The notes under the pieces were generated by a model. The model was not told where the DNA came from. It searched no databases and saw only the letters and a list, made by a program, of their open reading frames with translations. 64,000 nucleotides of DNA from an uncultured Clostridia bacterium (lineage in GTDB: Bacteria > Bacillota > Clostridia > Christensenellales > CAG-917), in NCBI GenBank assembly GCA_944363035.1, contig CALVTS010000001.1, positions 64,691 to 128,690 of the forward strand, written 5' to 3'. The translations under genes were made by a program, and so were the position numbers. This document shows positions 5,548-19,171 of the stretch, piece by piece. Every line of letters begins with the position of its first letter. Positions within the stretch are counted from its first letter, which is position 1.

Positions 5548-6836
5548 AAAACCTCCTCCGCGATGCTCACGACCTCGTCCATATCCGCCTTGCCCACGCA
5601 CTCGGTGCAACACCAGAGTATGCGGTGTTCGTCAAGGGGAAGTCCGCCGAGGATGCCCTTCCTTTCCAAAGCCGCGGTCAATGCCGACGCCTTGCCGGGA
5701 GTGATGGTGACGAACTCGTGGAAAAATTCCTTTTCGTAAAAGAGCTTCGCGCCCACGCGCGTGAGTTCTCGCGCGAGGTAATGCGCGTTGGAGGCGCATT
5801 TCGTCGCAAGGTCTTTGAGCCCGCGCGCGCCCATCAGGGAGAGATATACCGCCGCCGTCAGAGCGCAATGCGCCTGATTGGAACAGATGTTCGACGTGGC
5901 TTTCTCCCTCCTTATATGCTGTTCGCGGGTCTGCAAAGTGAGCACGAACGCGCGATCGCCTTCCGCGTCCTTGGTCTCCCCCACTATGCGGCCGGGGAGC
6001 TTGCGCATGAATTCCCTTTTCGCCGCCATATATCCGAGATAAGGTCCGCCGAAGCTGACGGGGAGCCCGAAAGGCTGAGCGTCGCCGACGGCGACGTCCG
6101 CGCCGCATTCGCCGGGGCTCCTGAACAGCGCGAGAGCGAGCGGGTTGCCGCCCACCACCACTTTCATGCCCTCCGCCTTTGCCGCCGAGACGAGCAGAGA
6201 CACATCCTCGACGATCCCGTAATAGTTGGGGGATTGTATGTAAAGGACGCTCCCGCCCGTCCCGCTTTTCAGGACGGCGTTGCCGTTGTCTGCCGAGAGC
6301 ACCTCGAGGGCTATGCCGCGCGCGCCGAGATAGGTGCGCAGAGTGTCGAGGGTGTCGGGGTCTATATTTGAGAAAGTGACCACCTTCCTCCCCTTGCCCG
6401 CGCACATGACGCACGCTTCCGCCGCCGCCGTCGCGCCGGAATAGTGAGAGGCGGTGGCGACGTCCATGCCCGTGAGCTCGCACATCATGGTCTGAAACTC
6501 GAACGTCGCTTGCAGGATACCCTGGGATATCTCGGGCTGATAGGGAGTGTACGAGGTGAGGAATTCCTCCCTGGAAGTCACGCTCGTCACCGCCGCGGGG
6601 ATATAGTGCACATAGCTCCCCGCGCCTCTGAACACGCTCTTATACGTCGCGTTGCGGGATGCGAGCTCAGCAAGAGCCTTGTATGTTTCCTGCTGGGACC
6701 TGCCTTCGGAGAGCGCGAATTTTTTGCGTCTGAGCTCTTTCGGAAGATCGGAAAAGAGCTCCTCCGCGCTCGTCAGTCCGAGGAGGTCCAGCATCTTGCT
6801 CCTCTCTTTTTCGGAAATGGAAAGATAATCCGCCAT
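5544..6836 (-). CDS. gcvPA: glycine dehydrogenase subunit 1
   Basis: MADYLSISEKERSKMLDLLGL...FRGAGSYVHYIPAAV...TPYQPEISQGILQ, typical of GcvPA. Lies between gcvH and gcvPB. Confidence 0.93.
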   Translation of the reverse strand: MADYLSISEKERSKMLDLLGLTSAEELFSDLPKELRRKKFALSEGRSQQETYKALAELASRNATYKSVFRGAGSYVHYIPAAVTSVTSREEFLTSYTPYQPEISQGILQATFEFQTMMCELTGMDVATASHYSGATAAAEACVMCAGKGRKVVTFSNIDPDTLDTLRTYLGARGIALEVLSADNGNAVLKSGTGGSVLYIQSPNYYGIVEDVSLLVSAAKAEGMKVVVGGNPLALALFRSPGECGADVAVGDAQPFGLPVSFGGPYLGYMAAKREFMRKLPGRIVGETKDAEGDRAFVLTLQTREQHIRREKATSNICSNQAHCALTAAVYLSLMGARGLKDLATKCASNAHYLARELTRVGAKLFYEKEFFHEFVTITPGKASALTAALERKGILGGLPLDEHRILWCCTECVGKADMDEVVSIAEEVL

Positions 6837-13143: not shown

Positions 13144-14094
13144 TCAATCCGATATGCTCTTCACAAAAAATCCCAGCGAAAGGTCGTTGACCCGCTTTGA
13201 TTCCTCCCACTCGTATCGGACTATGTTGTAGACATGGCGGAGCTTTCTCGTCTCCTCGGCGGCGGGCACGAAATCGAAGAGGAACTTCTCGCATCTGCCC
13301 TCCCTTTCCAGCTCGGCAAAGAGGTCGGACAGAAGCAGACTGTGACGGGAGTATACATCGCGCTCACAGCCTATCAGCATGACGTACGGGAAGCGCACTC
13401 CGCGGGAATACTGCGTGAACGCGGAAAAGTCGTATATATCGTTGTCGCGGGGGTGCGCGCCGAACATCAGCTTCTCGAAAACGCGTTGTACCGCCCCGCC
13501 GCCCTTTGCGGGCTTGCCCTCGGCGTCCAACAGCACGGAGTGCACCTCGCACACGGGATGGCTCATGACGAGACATCTCACCGTCATATCGGGAGGCGTC
13601 ACGCCGTAGCGCGCCGCAAGCTCCGGCGACAGCATCACAGAAAGCGCGAGAGAGGAAAGATGTCCGCCCGCAGAGTCCCCCGACAGCATGACGCGTCCGA
13701 CGTCCGCGCCCAGCTCCTCCTTATGGTCGCAGATAAAACCCATGGACGCGATGACATCCTGCACCTGCTCTTTCAGGGTGACGTCGGGCATGAGTCTGTA
13801 CCCCATCCCCACCACGCAAAACCCTTTGGAGGCGAGATACATACAGTAATAAGCGTTGAGGTCCTTGTCGCCGTAAGCCCATGCCCCGCCGTGCACGTTG
13901 ACGATGAGAGGAAGAGTCCCGCTCTCCCCTTCGGGACGATACACGTTGAGTTTGTGCATGGGGTCGCCGTCATCGAGATAGACGTACTCCCTCACGCTCA
14001 CTCCGGGAGGAGGGGTCTGACTCGCGATACGCGCCCTGTCATGCCTTCCGGTATCCCATCTCATATATGCCACGGCAAGTTTTCCTATGCACAT
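13144..14094 (-). CDS. alpha/beta hydrolase (HSL-type esterase/lipase)
   Basis: ORF 13144..14616 trimmed to MCIGKLAVAY. Motifs VNVHGGAWAYGD and LSGDSAGGHL (nucleophile elbow). The upstream part of the listed ORF overlaps the MBL gene and is R/G-rich. Confidence 0.85.
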   Translation of the reverse strand: MCIGKLAVAYMRWDTGRHDRARIASQTPPPGVSVREYVYLDDGDPMHKLNVYRPEGESGTLPLIVNVHGGAWAYGDKDLNAYYCMYLASKGFCVVGMGYRLMPDVTLKEQVQDVIASMGFICDHKEELGADVGRVMLSGDSAGGHLSSLALSVMLSPELAARYGVTPPDMTVRCLVMSHPVCEVHSVLLDAEGKPAKGGGAVQRVFEKLMFGAHPRDNDIYDFSAFTQYSRGVRFPYVMLIGCERDVYSRHSLLLSDLFAELEREGRCEKFLFDFVPAAEETRKLRHVYNIVRYEWEESKRVNDLSLGFFVKSISD

Positions 14095-14096
14095 AT

Positions 14097-14912
14097 TCAC
14101 CTCACCTGACCCGGGAACGCCCACACCGTGATCTTCCCCGCCCCGCCGTATTTCCCGACGTGCACGAGGATGGGCTCTTCCGCGCCTTTGAGTTTTATTT
14201 TTTTGCAGTTCTCGGGGTTTACATCCCGCAAAGCGGCGACAAAACCCTCGATAAAGCCGATTTCGAGCGGTTTTCGAGAGTGGGATATCCACATCTCGCG
14301 GTAGGATATCAGCGAGGGGGAAAGCCTCTCCCAACGCTCGGCGTATCCCGCGGTCGTGGAGGCTGCGTCGGTGAACAGCCATTGCGCTCGTCCGATCGCG
14401 TCCCCGGTGAAAAGCAGCTTCTCCTTTTCGTCCGCAAAGATGACGCTCCCCTCGGTATGCCCCGGGCAGTCTATCCTGCGCACCACCCTGCCGCCGAGGT
14501 CTATGCTCGCGCCGAGAGGAGAATATCTCTCCTCGCCCGTAACTACGGTGTAGAGTTTTTCCAGCTTCCCGACGAGGGGACGGAGCAAGGGCGAACTCTC
14601 CCGATACGCCGCGCAAAGGGACGCCACCATGTCGTTGGAGGGGATGCCGCGCTCGGGCAGATCCCCCTCCCCGAGCAACACTTCTTCAAAGAACTTGTTG
14701 CCGTTGCTGTGGTCGGGATGCAGGTGGGTGTTGACTACGACGAGAGGTAGCGAGGTGAGCTTCTTCACCTTTTTCAAAAGCGACTTTTTGCCGTAGCCCG
14801 TGTCGATGAGGAGGGCGCGCTCGCCGCCCAAAAGCAAAAACTGACTGACGCCCAAAAGGGTGTCCGTCAGCATATAGGTGTCTCTTGCGATACGCTTTGC
14901 GGCGGTGCCCAT
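14097..14912 (-). CDS. MBL-fold metallo-hydrolase
   Basis: Trimmed to MGTAAKRIARDTYML, preceded by GGGAGGGAAG. Motifs VVNTHLHPDHSNGN (HxHxDH) and CPGHTEGSV. Confidence 0.88.
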   Translation of the reverse strand: MGTAAKRIARDTYMLTDTLLGVSQFLLLGGERALLIDTGYGKKSLLKKVKKLTSLPLVVVNTHLHPDHSNGNKFFEEVLLGEGDLPERGIPSNDMVASLCAAYRESSPLLRPLVGKLEKLYTVVTGEERYSPLGASIDLGGRVVRRIDCPGHTEGSVIFADEKEKLLFTGDAIGRAQWLFTDAASTTAGYAERWERLSPSLISYREMWISHSRKPLEIGFIEGFVAALRDVNPENCKKIKLKGAEEPILVHVGKYGGAGKITVWAFPGQVR

Positions 14913-15124
14913 ACTTCCCTCCCGACTACTCTTTTCATACGGATTATAACCTTTATCCCCCGTTTTTGTCAATGAGTGGCTCGGAGCATACGCAGGTATG
15001 ACATAGCCGCAAAAGGCAGGATGCAAACAAGACCGCGCCCTGAGGCGCGGCAATACACATAAGGCTCGGGGGACCGCCGCGCGCGGCAGTCCCCGTCGTC
15101 TTTCTCCCCATTCTTTACCGAGAG

Positions 15125-15898
15125 TCACATCCCCTCGAACAACATCTCTCTCGCCGAGTTGAGCGCGTTGAACAGCCTCGGGATGCCCATATACGGCATG
15201 GCGTGCACCAGCGCGCACACCACCTCCTCACGGCTGTTGCCCGCTTTCATCGCGCCCGCGACGTGGGACCTCACCTGCACCTCGGTCCCGCCCATAGCGG
15301 CGAGCATGACCACGGTGAGGAGCTCTCTCTCCTTTGTCACGAGCCCTTTGCGGGAGGCAAAGTCGCCGAAACACAATTCCGTCAGAAAGCGCGGCACCGC
15401 ATCCGAAAACTCGGCGGGCAGACCCGCATATCTTTGCTTTATCTCGTCGCCGTAAAGCTCCGTCTGCGCCGCAAGCCCTTTCTTGAAGCGATCTTCCTCC
15501 GTCACGGTGGCGGCATCTTCGAGGGGCAAAGATATCCCCCTCTCCTCAAACGCCTCATTCATGGCGGCGATGGCGTTCAGCGTCTTGGGAAAGCCTATGA
15601 AAGGCGCGCATTGATACACCGTCTCCCTCACTTCGAGAGGGCTCGCTCCTATGTTGAGGCACGCCGCCGTGTGCGCTTTTAGCTGTGGCAACGCCTGCAC
15701 GACCGCAAGCACGGTCAGGGTGACGAGCTCCCTCATCCTGTCGTCGAGAGACCCCGTGTAGCTCACCTCGCCGAAAATGAACCTTTGCAGGATGCGCATG
15801 AATTCCGGGTCCCGTCCCTCGTTGCGCACGGGCTCCGACAAAAAGAGTTTTTTCACCTTTTCTCTGCATTTTTCCGTCCTGTTTTTTTCCGTTTCCAT
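15125..15898 (-). CDS. carboxymuconolactone decarboxylase (CMD/AhpD-like) family protein, two domains
   Basis: 257 aa. Two CMD-like repeats (LVTLTVLAVVQALPQLKAHTAACLNIGASPLEVRETVYQCAPFIGFPK and LLTVVMLAAMGGTEVQVRSHVAGAMKAGNSREEVVCALVHAMPYMGIPR). Confidence 0.8.
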   Translation of the reverse strand: METEKNRTEKCREKVKKLFLSEPVRNEGRDPEFMRILQRFIFGEVSYTGSLDDRMRELVTLTVLAVVQALPQLKAHTAACLNIGASPLEVRETVYQCAPFIGFPKTLNAIAAMNEAFEERGISLPLEDAATVTEEDRFKKGLAAQTELYGDEIKQRYAGLPAEFSDAVPRFLTELCFGDFASRKGLVTKERELLTVVMLAAMGGTEVQVRSHVAGAMKAGNSREEVVCALVHAMPYMGIPRLFNALNSAREMLFEGM

Positions 15899-16101
15899 GA
15901 CGCCGCCTCCTTTTCGAACGCGATCTCAGACATACCTAATGAAAAAGACCGCCTTTCACCCAAAATTATATCGGCAATGCCATGCCATGTCCAATATTTA
16001 TTTTTTATGCCATCCATGCCAGACAGGAATAATATCCCCCGTCAAGCGTAGCGCGAGCCTATCCTTCCCGCACCCGAAGCAGAGCGCATGGATAAATTCT
16101 C

Positions 16102-16129
16102 TTGCGTTCGGAGAATAATATGCTATAAT
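16102..16129 (+). promoter_or_regulatory. promoter for ssrA
   Basis: TTGCGT, 16-nt spacer, then TGC-TATAAT (extended -10), about 30 nt upstream of the mature tmRNA 5' end. Confidence 0.6.
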
Positions 16130-16159
16130 CTCTTTGCCTGCGTCGCGTACCCACGGCGT

Positions 16160-16522
16160 GGGGGTGTACCGGCTTCGACAGTCGGTTTGAGACGGGGTAA
16201 GCATGCCGCAGGCTCGTCTGCGTCAACAACGGAAATAAAAAATAAACGCGAAAAATACGCAAAAGAACTCCACCATGGAGTTCGCCCTCGCTGCATAATT
16301 TAGTCAGCGTGTCGCCCTCGGGTTTTCTGTTCCCCGAGCAAGCGGCATCATAAAAACAGACAACGCGGTCCCATCGCCCGGTAAGACCGCTGTCATCACG
16401 GGCTAGTCGATCCGAGGCTCGCCGCCGTGCCGAAGTGAGAGACCCCTAAACGTCGGATAAGCATGTAGAAATCACCGCCAACGGCCGGTTGGACCGGGGT
16501 TCAACTCCCCGCACCTCCACCA
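16160..16522 (+). ncRNA. ssrA: tmRNA (transfer-messenger RNA)
   Basis: 5' GGGGGUGUACCGGCUUCGACAG and 3' GGACCGGGGUUCAACUCCCCGCACCUCCACCA. 7-bp acceptor stem with a G3:U pair, T-arm and CCA encoded. The internal tag frame ends ...FALAA-TAA (tentative tag AKNTQKNSTMEFALAA). Confidence 0.95.
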
Positions 16523-16910
16523 CAAAAAGCGCTTGCTCTGCAAGCGCTTTTCTTGTCTGAGAGCGGGGAGTTTTACCTCTCGCTGACGCGATTTTACGCC
16601 CTGCGTGAACTCCGCACGCAGATCAGACGGCGCAAAATTCGCTATTCCGTCGCGCTTTGCGCTCCTTACGACTCCCCGCACCTCCACCACAAAAAGCGCT
16701 TGCTTTGCAAGCGCTTTTCTTGTCTGAGAGCGGGGAGTTTTACCTCTCGCTGACGCGATTCTTTGCCCCACCGAAAATTCTTTCGGCGGGGACCCCGATG
16801 TTTACCCCACCGAAAATTCTTTCGGCGGGGACCCCGAGGCGCCCTGCGTGAACTCCGCACGCAGATCGTATGGCGCAGAATACGCTATTCCGTCGCGCTT
16901 TGCGCCGCAA
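16504..16910. repeat. nested direct-repeat block including a duplicated tmRNA 3' end
   Basis: A: 16504-16593 equals 16671-16760 (90 nt, 1 mismatch; the last 19 nt of ssrA plus its terminator and 40 nt beyond). B: 16598-16662 approximately equals 16841-16905 (hairpin CTGCGTG/CACGCAG). C: 16766-16798 equals 16805-16837 (tandem, hairpin CCGAAA/TTTCGG). Order is A-B-A-C-C-B. Confidence 0.9.
16527..16555 (+). terminator. rho-independent terminator of ssrA
   Basis: AAGCGCTTG, ctctg loop, CAAGCGCTT, then TTTCTT. Confidence 0.8.
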
Positions 16911-16980
16911 TGCACACGGGGCAGGCAGTTTGAAAAACAGTAGCCGTATGAGATCGGCTCCCTGTCGGTGGCGGGGAGGG

Positions 16981-17823
16981 TCACGGGGTGGAGGGGGTGG
17001 AGGGATAGAGAGCGGCGAGGAGGGAGGAGACGCGTTGACGGGTGAGGGGGTGGATGGCGTTGGGTGCGAGCTCGGCGAGGGGGGCGAGGACGAACTCGCG
17101 TTTGGTCATCTCGGGATGCGGGAGGATGAGATCCCCCTCCCCTCTCGTCTCGTTGCCGAAGATGAGGATGTCGAGGTCGAGGGTCCTGTCACCCCAATGC
17201 AGGTCGCGCGTTCTGTCGCACTCGTTTTCGATGCGGCGGATGAGGCGGAGCAAGCCGTCCGCGTCGTGCAGGGTGACCACTTGCAATGCGGAATTGAGGA
17301 ACTCGTTTTGCGCCGCGCCGCCGTAGGGAGCGGTGCGGATGCGGCGGCTCTCCCTGACGGAAAGCACGAGCCTGTCCTCCGAAAGGAGGCGCACCGCCTT
17401 GTCCATATACGCGTCCCTGTCACCTATGCTCGACCCCATGCCGAGATACGCGGTGGTACGCCTGACCTCTGCGCGCACGGCGACGGAGCGGAACACCCCT
17501 TTCATGGGCGCGTCGGGCTTGTCAACGGTGACCTCCGCGCGAGCGAACGCGGGGAAAGAGAGCATGATCTCTCTTGCGAGAGAGAGCGCGAGGCACTCCA
17601 ACAGATTTTTGCTTTCCCGACACAAAAAGGCTTTTATCAGCTTGCAAACGGCGGCATAACTGACGGTTTTGTCAATATCGTCGCATTCTGCGGCTTGCGT
17701 GAGATCGAGGTCCAACACAGCCGAGACCAAGAATCTCTGCGCATCCGTCTTTTCTTCGGGGTTGACGCCGTGGCAGGCAGTCACTTCGTAATCGCGGATC
17801 AAGATGCTTCCGTTCACGCTCAT
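16981..17823 (-). CDS. folB-folK: bifunctional dihydroneopterin aldolase / 2-amino-4-hydroxy-6-hydroxymethyldihydropteridine diphosphokinase
   Basis: N-terminal FolB-like region (ILIRDYEVTACHGVNPEEK...DDIDKTVSYAAV). C-terminal HPPK region (AYLGMGSSIGDRD...RTAPYGG...WGDRTLDLDILIFGN...LILPHPEM). Confidence 0.88.
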   Translation of the reverse strand: MSVNGSILIRDYEVTACHGVNPEEKTDAQRFLVSAVLDLDLTQAAECDDIDKTVSYAAVCKLIKAFLCRESKNLLECLALSLAREIMLSFPAFARAEVTVDKPDAPMKGVFRSVAVRAEVRRTTAYLGMGSSIGDRDAYMDKAVRLLSEDRLVLSVRESRRIRTAPYGGAAQNEFLNSALQVVTLHDADGLLRLIRRIENECDRTRDLHWGDRTLDLDILIFGNETRGEGDLILPHPEMTKREFVLAPLAELAPNAIHPLTRQRVSSLLAALYPSTPSTP

Positions 17824-17831
17824 ATCCTCTC

Positions 17832-18617
17832 CTATCGGCGGCGGGCGAGAGCCCTTATCGCCATCAGATTTTCTTTGACGTCGTGTACGCGCACAAACAG
17901 CACGCCCATCCTCGCCGCGTCCGCGCTGGTGCGCATGGTCGCCGTGAGCCTGTTTTCGGGCTCGCCGCCGAGGAATGACTTTCTGGACGCGCCCAGAAGC
18001 AAAGGATAGCCCGTCGCCGCAAGGAGGTCATAATGCTCCAACAAAAATCTGTCCTCCTCCGCTCCGCGGTTGAACCCGATGCCGCCGTCCAGGATGATGT
18101 GCTCGGGAGGAACGCCCGCGCGCACCGCCTTTGCCGCGGCGGCGGAGAGTCCCGTGAGTTTGTCCGTCATAAGGTCGGCGACCGTGCTATGCCGTCTGTC
18201 GTGCATGATGCACAGCGACGCGCCGTATCTTGCCACTACTTCCGCCATCCCGGCATAGCGCAGGCAGGACACGTCGTTTATCATATCGGCGCCGGCGCCG
18301 AGAGCCGCCTCTGCGACTTCGGGATAGAACGTATCCACCGAAAGCGGCGCGTCGGTCGCGGCGCGTACTCTTTCCAAGGCGGGCAAAAGCAAACTCATCT
18401 CTTCCAGGGCGCTCACGGTCGCGGCGCCGGGACGAGTGGATTGCGCGCCGATATCCAGAATCTCGGCGCCGTCCGCCGTCATCTCGACGGCGCGTGCCGC
18501 GATATCCTCCCTCGTGACGCGGCTAGCCGCCCAAAAGGAATCGGACGTGACGTTGAGGATGCCCATGACGTGCGTCCCCTCGCAGAAAGTCCTGCCGCGC
18601 ACCGAAAAAGCGTTCAT
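17832..18617 (-). CDS. folP: dihydropteroate synthase
   Basis: VMGILNVTSDSFWAAS...AEILDIGAQSTRPGA...INDVS...GIGFNRG, canonical DHPS motifs. Confidence 0.92.
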   Translation of the reverse strand: MNAFSVRGRTFCEGTHVMGILNVTSDSFWAASRVTREDIAARAVEMTADGAEILDIGAQSTRPGAATVSALEEMSLLLPALERVRAATDAPLSVDTFYPEVAEAALGAGADMINDVSCLRYAGMAEVVARYGASLCIMHDRRHSTVADLMTDKLTGLSAAAAKAVRAGVPPEHIILDGGIGFNRGAEEDRFLLEHYDLLAATGYPLLLGASRKSFLGGEPENRLTATMRTSADAARMGVLFVRVHDVKENLMAIRALARRR

Positions 18618-19171
18618 CTCCTCTCCCCCGCATAGGCCATGAGCATGGCGACGACCGAGGAAGGTATCTCCCCTCGCACGGCGTAGCTCACGGTGGTCGA
18701 GCCTATCTTTTTGACGCCGCGCGCAGTCATGCAGGTATGCTCCGCCTCCACGACCACCGCGACCCCTTTTGGCGCGAGATGCAAAAAGAGCGCGTCGGCT
18801 ATCTCTGCGTTCATCCTCTCCTGCAATTGGAGACGGCGGGCGTAGACGTCCACCGTGCGCGCGAGCTTGCTGAGCCCCGCGACCCTGCCGTCGGGGACGT
18901 AGGCTATGTGCACCCTGCCGAAAAAGGGCATGAGATGATGCTCGCAGGTGGAGGAGAATGAGATGTCCCTCTCCACGACGAGGGCGCTGCCCCCCTCGGA
19001 AAAAGTCTTTGAAAGATGCTTTTCCGCGCTGTCGGAATAACCGGCGGTCAGTTCCTCCAACATACGCGCGACTCTGGCGGGAGTATCTTTCAACCCCTCG
19101 CGACCCGCGTCCTCGCCCATAGCGGCGATGAGCTCACGAACGGCGTTTTCCGCCCTTTGTTTATCCACCAT
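18614..19171 (-). CDS. folE: GTP cyclohydrolase I
   Basis: Trimmed to MVDKQRAENAVRELI, preceded by GAGGTG. Motifs GLKDTPARVARM, FSSTCEHHLMPFFG, QLQERM and EAEHTCMTARG. Confidence 0.92.
   Translation of the reverse strand: MVDKQRAENAVRELIAAMGEDAGREGLKDTPARVARMLEELTAGYSDSAEKHLSKTFSEGGSALVVERDISFSSTCEHHLMPFFGRVHIAYVPDGRVAGLSKLARTVDVYARRLQLQERMNAEIADALFLHLAPKGVAVVVEAEHTCMTARGVKKIGSTTVSYAVRGEIPSSVVAMLMAYAGERR

What the first reader, a model, noticed from the sequence alone, without database searches (positions are those of the whole stretch)
16504..16910. tmRNA 3' end duplicated 167 bp downstream (att-like) within an A-B-A-C-C-B repeat nest, but no island
The last 19 nt of ssrA, starting in the T-loop, plus its terminator and 40 further nt (16504-16593) recur at 16671-16760 with a single mismatch in the terminator loop. 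Duplication of a tmRNA 3' segment starting in the T-loop is the classical attL/attR signature of integrase-mediated island insertion at ssrA.

Here only 77 bp separates the copies. That spacer is itself repeat B (hairpin CTGCGTG-aactccg-CACGCAG plus a GCGCAAA/TTTGCGC stem), which recurs at 16841-16905. Two tandem 33-nt hairpin repeats (C, period 39) lie between the second A copy and the second B copy.

This could be the scar of an excised or deleted island, a tandem att array, or a tiny integrative satellite. All ORFs listed by the track here are repeat-derived artefacts.
Basis: partly seen in the sequence, partly recalled or inferred. Interest (0 to 1): 0.6.

Follow-up and report, generated by a model that had tools for sequence, protein, structure and literature searches.

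The report
Stacked repeat units behind tmRNA gene
The duplicated tmRNA 3' end is real, but it is the two-unit form of a small gene-less repeat family that stacks behind the tmRNA gene in some gut Clostridia and varies in copy number between strains, much like the long-unexplained "tRNA-linked repeats" of E. coli, and is not the scar of a lost genomic island.

Summary
tmRNA lies at 16160-16522. Its last 19 nt, its terminator and 43 further nt recur 167 nt downstream with one mismatch. B occurs twice and C twice, with a 39-nt period.

It is not an assembly artefact. Three independent assemblies and Logan contigs from three runs carry the same junction.

It is polymorphic. Among 11 same-species samples, 8 have the single form A-C-B and 3 have A-B-A-C(-C)-B.

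The segment between the two tmRNA-end copies (16523-16689, "Y") is a conserved unit, not a fresh duplication. Related human- and chicken-gut Clostridia, whose tmRNA is 94.5% identical, carry 1 to at least 2 homologous 210-nt units. These have the same head (a terminator with compensatory changes) and the same tail (...GCGCTCCTTAC plus the tmRNA end). One relative also carries a different 279-nt unit that ends the same way.

This is the architecture of E. coli tRNA-linked repeats (TLRs), which I re-verified at tyrT/tyrV, but the units show no homology to RtT.

C is a dispersed, multi-copy REP-like hairpin. B is not dispersed in the window.

I found no island, no integrase in the 64 kb, no phage or plasmid match, and no stable RNA from the units.

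Unit number most likely changes by recombination between the repeated heads. How the first unit arose is unresolved.

The parts
16160..16522 (+). tmRNA gene (ssrA), tag AKNTQKNSTMEFALAA. The mature 3' end is at CCA 16522.
   Evidence: ARAGORN. Rfam RF00023, 146.7 bits. Metatranscriptome contigs cover 16167-16522, and sequencing adapters abut 16519-16522.
16504..16522 (+). Core copy 1: the last 19 nt of tmRNA, A58 of the T-loop to CCA. This is the segment repeated at the end of each unit.
16523..16689 (+). Full repeat unit Y1 (167 nt). It consists of a head (terminator plus A-rest), a middle and tail (B1), TCCTTAC plus G, and core copy 2.
   Evidence: Unit boundaries come from core positions. 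It is homologous to the 210-nt units of L120, L260 and L267: head 80% identical, tail arm 85%, middle about 36%.
16525..16551 (.). Intrinsic terminator hairpin 1 (AAAAGCGCTTGC-tct-GCAAGCGCTTTT). An A-run lies before it and a T-run after it, so it should work on both strands.
   Evidence: Inverted repeat I6. Fold. RNA depth falls from 34-270 to 0-2 just after 16522. Two stem pairs changed on both sides in L120 and L260.
16563..16571 (+). GCGGGGAGT, the exact reverse complement of ACTCCCCGC (16504-16512) in the core. It is conserved in the units of relatives.
   Evidence: Inverted repeats I2 and I4. Alignment A1.
16597..16662 (+). B1, the middle and tail of unit Y1: hairpin CTGCGTG/CACGCAG and stem GCGCAAA/TTTGCGC.
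   Evidence: The tail part CGCTATTCCGTCGC..GCGC is conserved in L120, L260 and L267.
16663..16670 (+). TCCTTAC plus G, the junction between the unit tail and core copy 2. It is shared with units of other species, so it is not filler from a recent duplication.
16671..16689 (+). Core copy 2, a fragment of the tmRNA 3' end that lacks the 5' half of the T-arm.
16690..16905 (+). Distal, decayed unit Y2*: head (terminator 2 at 16692-16718 plus A-rest to 16760), two C hairpins, and B2. It has no terminal TCCTTAC plus core.
16762..16837 (+). Two tandem C units (16762-16798 and 16801-16837). C is a REP-like hairpin with a GGGGACCCC core. Strains carry 1 or 2 copies.
   Evidence: Logan contig depth is 300-1200 over C against 13-28 in the flanks, with many different flanks. 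One copy in L013-L019, two in the window, L020 and L024.
16840..16905 (+). B2, the second copy of B. In this window it carries the alternative population haplotype (GTAT..AGAATAC).
16942..16959 (-). Terminator-like hairpin of the convergent folC-folE-folP-folBK operon.
   Evidence: The FolB-HPPK ORF is 16981-17823 on the minus strand.

Best explanation
**What it is**
The A-B-A nest is the two-unit allele of a family of gene-less, hairpin-rich repeat units. These units stack directly behind the tmRNA gene in a small clade of gut Clostridia.
- A full unit here is 16523-16689 (167 nt).
- It starts right after the tmRNA CCA with its own bidirectional intrinsic terminator.
- It ends with a copy of the tmRNA's last 19-21 nt, from the T-loop to CCA.
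- This is the architecture of E. coli tRNA-linked repeats (TLRs).
- The distal unit (16690-16905) is a decayed copy. It has lost its terminal tmRNA-end copy and has picked up one or two copies of a dispersed REP-like hairpin (C).

**How it varies (inferred)**
Unit number changes by homologous, unequal recombination between the 90-nt or longer repeated heads. A-by-A recombination removes exactly 167 nt and gives the common single form.

**What the units do**
- Shown: the DNA anatomy and that the units give no abundant RNA.
- Inferred: each unit adds a redundant terminator between the very strongly transcribed ssrA and the convergent fol operon.
- I found no other function.

**What remains open**
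How the first unit was made is unresolved. The candidates are site-specific recombination in the T-loop, or some process guided by tRNA structure.
For: **Shown: anatomy and significance**

**Shown: polymorphism within the species (98-99% identical contigs)**
- Single A-C-B form in L014-L019, L021 and L026-L028.
- Double form with the identical junction, but reshuffled SNPs, in L013/L023, L024 and L029.
- Logan contigs that skip exactly 167 nt in X5 and X15, and contigs that carry the B-to-core junction in X2, X6 and X39.

**Shown: Y is a family**
- L120 (tmRNA 94.5% identical) reads ssrA, X (279 nt), core, Y (210 nt), core.
- L260 has at least 2 tandem Y units that are 91% alike.
- L267 reads ssrA, Y, core.
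- L261 reads ssrA followed by the start of Y.
- The head is 80% identical, the tail arm 85%, and the middle about 36%. Two terminator stem pairs changed on both sides.
- TCCTTAC plus core is shared across these loci.

**Shown: vertical context**
The left-flank synteny (gcv, lplA, P-II, DUF1538, esterase, MBL) is kept in relatives.

**Shown: TLR architecture, checked on the E. coli K-12 tyrT/tyrV locus**
- There are 178-nt units, each ending in the last 19 nt of tRNA-Tyr, from A58.
- The trailer is repeated after each copy, and the array ends on a copy.
- The TLR definition is taken from PMC8144298.

**Shown: rarity**

**Shown: no stable RNA**
Depth is 0 over 16523-16990 against 34-690 over tmRNA.

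**Shown: no island signals**
Against: - **Recombination not observed.** Recombination as the cause of unit gain and loss is inferred from allele structure, not seen directly.
- **Signs that still fit a site-specific (integrase-type) process.**
  - The repeat starts in the T-loop.
  - Unit ends are conserved while the middle is replaced.
  - L120 stacks two different units, X and Y.
  - AT-rich DNA (25-29% GC against 58-62%) starts right after L120's last core.
  - The ssrA 3' side is a synteny break in every relative and is even inverted between L120 and L267.
- **No RtT homology.** There is no match to Rfam RtT at E up to 1.
- **Transcription differs.** E. coli TLRs are transcribed, whereas no RNA contig covers these units.
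Confidence: 0.6

Rival explanations
1. The units are miniature integrative elements, consisting of attP arms only (CIME- or satellite-like). A tyrosine integrase encoded elsewhere inserts and excises them at the tmRNA T-loop. The array is then a tandem att array built by successive integrations.
For: - Each unit is bounded by the tmRNA 3' segment starting in the T-loop.
- Unit ends next to the core are conserved across species while the middle is replaced.
- L120 stacks two different units, X and Y, whose pre-core arms are about 60% alike.
- AT-rich, foreign-looking DNA follows the last core in L120.
- A short Logan contig in X40 joins the tmRNA end directly to a flank like the distal flank of L260, which would be a possible empty site.
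- The unit size of 167-280 nt is within the range of a complete attP (own knowledge).
Against: - No integrase was found in the 64-kb window.
- No full-size occupant occurs in about 14 same-species contigs.
- No phage, plasmid or viral contig carries the arms.
- Identity begins at nt 56-58, so it does not cover the whole 7-nt T-loop, which a T-loop crossover would need (inference).
- The sequence left of the fragment copies (GCGCTCCTTAC) has no dyad symmetry with CCCCGCACC.
- In the window, identity continues 71 nt beyond the gene.
Confidence: 0.22
2. The nest is the scar of a genomic island or prophage that integrated at ssrA. The island was later deleted, leaving attL and attR 167 nt apart.
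For: - A direct repeat of a tmRNA 3' segment starting in the T-loop is the standard island signature (Islander papers found; own knowledge).
- The ssrA 3' flank is rearrangement-prone in this clade.
- L262 has a partial ORF resembling a large serine recombinase 330 nt after ssrA (weak, E = 0.004).
Against: - What lies between the copies is a copy of the native trailer (A-rest plus B), not foreign DNA.
- The same unit, with the same junction, exists in other species in 1 to at least 2 copies. Independent island deletions would not reproduce that.
- No occupied site was seen.
Confidence: 0.08
3. The nest is a recent, one-off tandem duplication of native sequence by replication slippage or illegitimate recombination, with 7 nt of filler. 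A boundary in the T-loop would then be a coincidence.
For: - The two A copies differ at 1 of 90 nt, and B at 8%.
- Only the strains of one species were initially seen with it.
Against: - The supposed filler TCCTTAC and the whole tail-plus-core junction are shared with units of other species whose tmRNA is 5.5% diverged.
- Tandem units in L260 are already 9% diverged.
- L120's unit X ends in the same way.
Confidence: 0.04
4. The nest is an assembly artefact of a repeat-rich metagenome bin.
For: - The source is a chicken-gut metagenome.
- Contigs often break in this region (L020, L029, L261).
Against: - The same junction occurs in three assemblies from different studies and assemblers, with different SNPs.
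- It also occurs in Logan contigs of X2, X6 and X39.
Confidence: 0.02

Closest known systems
tRNA-linked repeats (TLRs) of E. coli: the 178-bp tyrT/tyrV repeats (Egan and Landy 1978; Rudd 1999, as cited in PMC8144298), Rfam RtT RF00391, and rrA/rrB/rrF behind 5S rRNA
   Same: - Units sit immediately 3' of a stable-RNA gene.
- Each unit ends with the gene's last 18-19 nt. Here it is 19-21 nt, starting at T-loop nt 56-58; in E. coli tyrT it starts at A58.
- The gene's trailer is repeated after each copy.
- Arrays end on a copy, as in L120 and L260.
- There are 1-5 units per locus in E. coli. Here there is one extra unit or none in the window's species, and 1 to at least 2 units in relatives.
- Units are about 170-210 nt and hairpin-rich.
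- No established function.
   Different: - The host gene is tmRNA, not a tRNA or rRNA.
- The host is a gut Clostridium, not an enterobacterium.
- There is no sequence or structure match to RtT, whereas the same model hits all four E. coli units.
- No RNA product was seen, whereas RtT and RrA/B/F are transcribed and processed (PMC8144298).
- Each unit here starts with a strong intrinsic terminator.
Genomic islands and prophages integrated at tRNA/tmRNA 3' ends by tyrosine integrases, including tandem ssrA islands (Islander, PMC4383910; Dehalococcoides ssrA islands, PMC3146451)
   Same: - Direct repeats of the gene's 3' segment beginning in the T-loop.
- Stacking of several units at one ssrA.
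- The 3' flank of ssrA is a hot spot of structural change.
   Different: - No cargo and no integrase.
- Units are 167-280 nt of non-coding DNA.
- In the window the repeat extends 71 nt beyond the gene.
- No matching attP was found in phage, plasmid or viral collections.
REP/BIME-type dispersed palindromic repeats (this applies to element C only)
   Same: - A short imperfect palindrome of 33-37 nt.
- Tandem clusters with variable unit number.
- Intergenic location.
- Many copies with different flanks in the same metagenomes.
   Different: - Its own sequence family, with a GGGGWCCCC core.
- Only two copies in this 64-kb window.
- Association with a RAYT-type transposase was not tested.

Membership tests
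tRNA-linked repeats (TLR) | The unit lies directly downstream of a stable-RNA gene in the same orientation. | tested here: met
   Unit 16523-16689 starts at the base after the tmRNA CCA. The host gene is a tmRNA, which has not been described for TLRs in the literature I read.
tRNA-linked repeats (TLR) | The unit's 3' end is identical to the last 18-19 nt of the upstream gene. | tested here: met
   Identity is 19 nt in the window (16671-16689 = 16504-16522) and 21 nt in L013 and L029. E. coli control: 19 nt in all four units.
tRNA-linked repeats (TLR) | One to several tandem units per locus, with the trailer repeated after each copy. | tested here: met
   Strains of the window's species carry either one extra full unit or none. 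Relatives carry 1 to at least 2 units. The trailer is repeated for 71 nt after core 2.
tRNA-linked repeats (TLR) | Sequence and structure homology to RtT (Rfam RF00391). | tested here: not met
   There is no RtT match at E up to 1 in 14000-19000. The model scores 133-138 bits on the E. coli units.
tRNA-linked repeats (TLR) | The unit is transcribed with the upstream gene and processed to an RNA. | tested here: inconclusive
   Metatranscriptome contigs stop at 16519-16522 and depth is 0 downstream. However, contigs drop rare read-through transcripts.
Integrase-made island at a tDNA (att duplication) | A direct repeat of the tDNA 3' segment marks both ends. | tested here: met
Integrase-made island at a tDNA (att duplication) | Cargo, including an integrase gene, lies between or beside the repeats. 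| tested here: not met
   148 nt of non-coding DNA lie between the cores. No recombinase family was found among 42 of the 45 ORFs of at least 180 aa in the window; the ABC permease, the large Ig-like protein and one wrong-strand ORF were not scanned.
Integrase-made island at a tDNA (att duplication) | Occupied and empty sites occur among related genomes. | tested here: inconclusive
   Units are present or absent with exact boundaries. No gene-bearing occupant was seen in about 14 same-species contigs. L120 has AT-rich DNA after its last core that I could not extend.
Integrase-made island at a tDNA (att duplication) | A matching attP exists on a phage, plasmid or ICE. | tested here: not met
   No match in phages or plasmids. 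There were 0 viral contigs with core plus trailer. The 5 fragment-type viral hits are unlike the unit.
REP/BIME-like dispersed repeat (element C) | A short palindromic unit in many copies with different flanks. | tested here: met
   Hairpin fold. Depth is 300-1200 against 13-28 in the flanks, with at least 6 different flanks per run. Variants occur in L002 and L022.
REP/BIME-like dispersed repeat (element C) | Many copies within this one genome, and a cognate RAYT transposase. | not testable with these tools
There are only 2 copies in the 64-kb window.

The most novel reading that the evidence does not exclude
TLR-type units may be a cross-phylum class of protein-less elements that colonise the 3' flank of stable-RNA genes (tRNA, 5S rRNA, tmRNA). 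They would spread by a mechanism that reads the tRNA-like T-arm. The evidence is that in E. coli tRNA-Tyr repeats and in these unrelated Clostridial tmRNA units, the copied gene end starts at the same place (T-loop nt 56-58) and ends at CCA. Unit ends next to the copy are conserved while the middles are replaced. If so, the Clostridial family, which is polymorphic within one species, would be a natural system for working out how TLRs form, a question open since 1978.
Probability: 0.17. Interest if true: 0.75.

Novelty: new variant of a known kind. Interest (0 to 1): 0.5.

Why it matters
- **Annotation.** Short duplications of a tRNA or tmRNA 3' end are routinely read as integration scars. This case shows a different, recurrent cause: repeat units built around the gene's own 3' end. 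This matters for island-calling software and for annotating ssrA loci.
- **Reach of the TLR architecture.** TLRs have been known since 1978 only from enterobacterial tRNA and rRNA operons and remain unexplained. This case extends the architecture to a tmRNA gene in Firmicutes.
- **A tractable system.** Unit gain and loss is still segregating within one species, and diverged units can be compared between species. That makes the mechanism testable.
- **Assembly.** The locus also breaks metagenome assemblies and marks a synteny breakpoint.

Tried and rejected

No whole-genome search for integrases, other unit copies or C copy number was possible.
- Long-read runs: none found.
- Scan notes by sequence or by relatives returned nothing.

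**Searches that did not help**
- Genus-level relatives found through FolB-HPPK (L001-L012) have no ssrA next to the fol operon, so they gave no empty or occupied site.
- The spurious-ORF trick (the 99-aa ORF across A-B-A) gave only four proteins, but one led to L260.
- I tried to extend L120's AT-rich flank through phage BLAST and a viral-contig pattern, with no hit.
- A wide scan with the tmRNA 3' 27-mer mostly returned unrelated phyla, because this end is highly conserved.

**Ideas I dropped**
- My first working idea was a fresh tandem duplication of A+B with 7 nt of filler and a later C insertion. I dropped it once the same junction appeared in other species.
- I looked for a template for TCCTTAC near the locus and found none.
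- I considered that C inserts 3' of TTAC, in the manner of IS200/IS605 elements. The filled and empty sites do not differ by a clean insertion, so I left this open.

Full report
**1.

- ARAGORN and Rfam place a tmRNA gene at 16160-16522 on the + strand.
  - A is 16504-16601 and 16671-16768. The first 90 nt differ only at 16538 C versus 16705 T, and the spacing is 167 nt.
  - B is 16597-16662 and 16840-16905, 92% identical.
  - C is 16762-16798 and 16801-16837, with a 39-nt period.
- None of these pieces has another copy in the 64-kb window at up to 3 mismatches, and shuffles give none.
- The T-loop is 16500-16506, so the repeat starts at A58.
- The locus lies between a divergent CMD-family gene (15125-15898, minus strand) and the convergent folC-folE-folP-folBK operon, whose stop is at 16981.

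**2. The duplication is real and polymorphic**

The organism is an uncultured chicken-gut Clostridium near "Candidatus Limadaptatus". Exact-protein look-ups of the two flanking genes returned about 16 same-species contigs, 98-99% identical, from several studies and assemblers.

They fall into these forms:

| Form | Loci | Samples |
|---|---|---|
| ssrA-A-C-B | L014-L019, L026-L028 | 7 |
| Same, with a 14-nt deletion in B | L021 | 1 |
| A-B-A-C-B | L013/L023 | 1 |
| A-B-A-C-C-B | window, L024 | 1 besides the window |
| A-B-A-C followed by other DNA | L029 | 1 |

- All double alleles share the junction ...GCGCTTTGCGC-TCCTTAC-(A/G)ACTCCCC.
- They differ at SNPs in both copies, including T-loop position 57, which is A/G in both copies across the population.
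- Logan contigs support both states.
  - The B-to-core junction is seen in X2, X6 and X39.
  - An exact 167-nt skip is seen in X5 and X15.
- Assembly artefact is therefore excluded for practical purposes. Long reads were not available.

**3. The segment between the copies is a conserved unit**

I scanned metagenome contigs for the tmRNA 3' 27-mer and obtained 120 ssrA loci. Only two of them had further 3'-end copies downstream.

- **L120** comes from a human-gut sample, and its tmRNA is 94.5% identical to the window's.
  - It reads ssrA, X (279 nt), core, Y (210 nt), core.
  - Y is homologous to window 16523-16689.
  - The head is CAAAAAGC, a terminator, then TTTTCTTGTCTGAnAGCGGGG...GCTGACGCGA. 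It is 80% identical, with two stem pairs changed on both sides.
  - The tail is CGCTATTCCGTCGC..GCGCTCCTTAC plus core. The arm is 85% identical.
  - The middle is essentially unalignable, at about 36%.
- **L260** was reached through a spurious ORF. It has at least 2 tandem Y units that are 91% alike, each ending in TCCTTAC plus core, followed by an unrelated flank.
- **L267** reads ssrA, Y, core.
- **L261** reads ssrA followed by the start of Y, and the contig then breaks.
- These relatives keep the window's left-flank synteny of gcv, lplA, P-II, DUF1538, esterase and MBL. The relationship is therefore largely vertical.
- More distant relatives (L262, L264) have a plain terminator and no second copy.

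Two conclusions follow. The "filler" TCCTTAC is an old, shared part of a unit. The window's distal copy (16690-16905) is a decayed unit that lacks the terminal TCCTTAC plus core and carries the C insert.

**4. Comparison with E. coli tRNA-linked repeats**

- PMC8144298 defines TLRs as 22 sequences at ten K-12 loci, with one to five per locus. [quoted passage not shown] They have no known function.
- I checked the type locus myself. Behind tyrT and tyrV there are four units with a 178-nt period.
  - All four are hit by Rfam RtT.
  - Each ends in the last 19 nt of tRNA-Tyr, from A58.
  - The tRNA trailer is repeated after each copy, and the array ends on a copy.
- The Clostridial units match this architecture point by point.
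- They have no RtT homology and sit behind a tmRNA gene.

**5. The island and att reading**

Evidence against it:
- 148 non-coding nt lie between the cores.
- Identity runs 71 nt past the gene into the trailer.
- No same-species contig holds an occupant.
- No recombinase-family hit occurs among the window's large ORFs.
- Phage, plasmid and viral collections give nothing.

Evidence that keeps a site-specific process alive:
- The repeat starts in the T-loop.
- Unit ends are conserved around a replaced middle.
- L120 stacks two different units, whose pre-core arms are about 60% alike.
- DNA of 25-29% GC starts right after L120's last core.
- The ssrA 3' side is a synteny break in every relative and is inverted between L120 and L267.

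**6. Element C, RNA evidence and function**

- C is a REP-like hairpin.
  - Logan contig depth over C is 300-1200, against 13-28 beside it.
  - It has many different flanks.
  - Strains carry 1 or 2 copies.
  - Variants with the same GGGGWCCCC core occur elsewhere.
- Metatranscriptome contigs cover the tmRNA at depth 34-690. Adapters abut 16519-16522 and depth is 0 downstream. The units therefore give no abundant stable RNA.
- Each unit head is a hairpin with an A-run before it and a T-run after it. It should terminate both ssrA and the convergent fol operon. This is inference.

**7. Verdict**

This is a TLR-like, ssrA-linked repeat-unit family, and the window carries the two-unit allele. Copy number most likely changes by recombination between the repeated heads. 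This is inferred from the alleles that differ by exactly 167 nt and from the reshuffled SNPs. The way units first arise is open. The finding is a new variant of a known but poorly understood kind, of moderate interest.

Noticed in passing
L030 and L033 (= L022, L025), about 6080-6590; compare L031-L037: In one lineage of the same species (98.8% identical up to 16530), ssrA is followed 8 nt after CCA by the downstream flank of tRNA-Ala(GGC), next to adh_short, coaE and polA, instead of the fol operon. This is a rearrangement between the 3' ends of two tRNA-like genes. Two independent assemblies show it. In that lineage polA is split into two ORFs.
   Followed up: partly
L035 6400-6560; L030 6080-6220; L267 4150-4290: A unit of about 130-200 nt is bounded by 16-nt inverted ends, CAAACGCAATGAGGGG and CCCCTCATTGCGTTTG, and starts with a terminator. 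It sits right after CCA of tRNA-Ala(GGC), after ssrA in the rearranged lineage, and after the last core in L267. It looks like a MITE.
   Followed up: partly
L120 2460-2873: GC content drops from 58-62% to 25-29% immediately after the last tmRNA-end copy. This may be the start of a foreign island. The locus could not be extended.
   Followed up: partly
L262 13066-13719 (minus strand): A partial ORF lies 330 nt downstream of a relative's ssrA and resembles the zinc-ribbon and coiled-coil end of a large serine recombinase. The Zn_ribbon_recom match has E = 0.004, below Pfam's cutoff.
   Followed up: partly
L267 4296-4936 versus L120 1540-2459: The ssrA plus Y segment is inverted relative to the neighbouring BNR-repeat gene between two contigs whose BNR genes are 96.6% identical. 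A degenerate, oppositely oriented core-like string (AACCCCGCACTTCCATTA) lies near one end, at L267 4082-4099.
   Followed up: no
window 16606-16615 and 16849-16858: The loop and 3' arm of B's first hairpin read AACTCCGCAC, which is the tmRNA-end core AACTCCCCGCAC with 2 nt missing. TCCGCAC also occurs in the middle of the L120 and L260 units. B may contain the relic of an older core.
   Followed up: no
L031 5875-8022; L037 1638-3785: A DNA methylase plus an NgoFVII-like restriction enzyme pair is inserted between adh_short and tRNA-Ala(GGC) in some strains and absent in others.
   Followed up: no
L035 about 6480-6520 (minus strand): There is a 19-nt tandem duplication (GCGCCCTTTTTGCGTGTCT twice) in the terminator behind tRNA-Ala(GGC). 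I did not check that note.
   Followed up: no
L153 540-640: An unrelated metagenome contig has a 69-nt unit behind its tmRNA gene, consisting of a terminator followed by a copy of the last 15 nt of the tmRNA.
   Followed up: no
L029 1-375 (locus coordinates; downstream of the C hairpin on the ssrA strand); Logan runs X6 and X15: In some strains the DNA after the C hairpin is not B and folBK but another sequence (TGTTTGCGTCGTGAAAATGC...). This suggests rearrangement through dispersed C copies.
   Followed up: no
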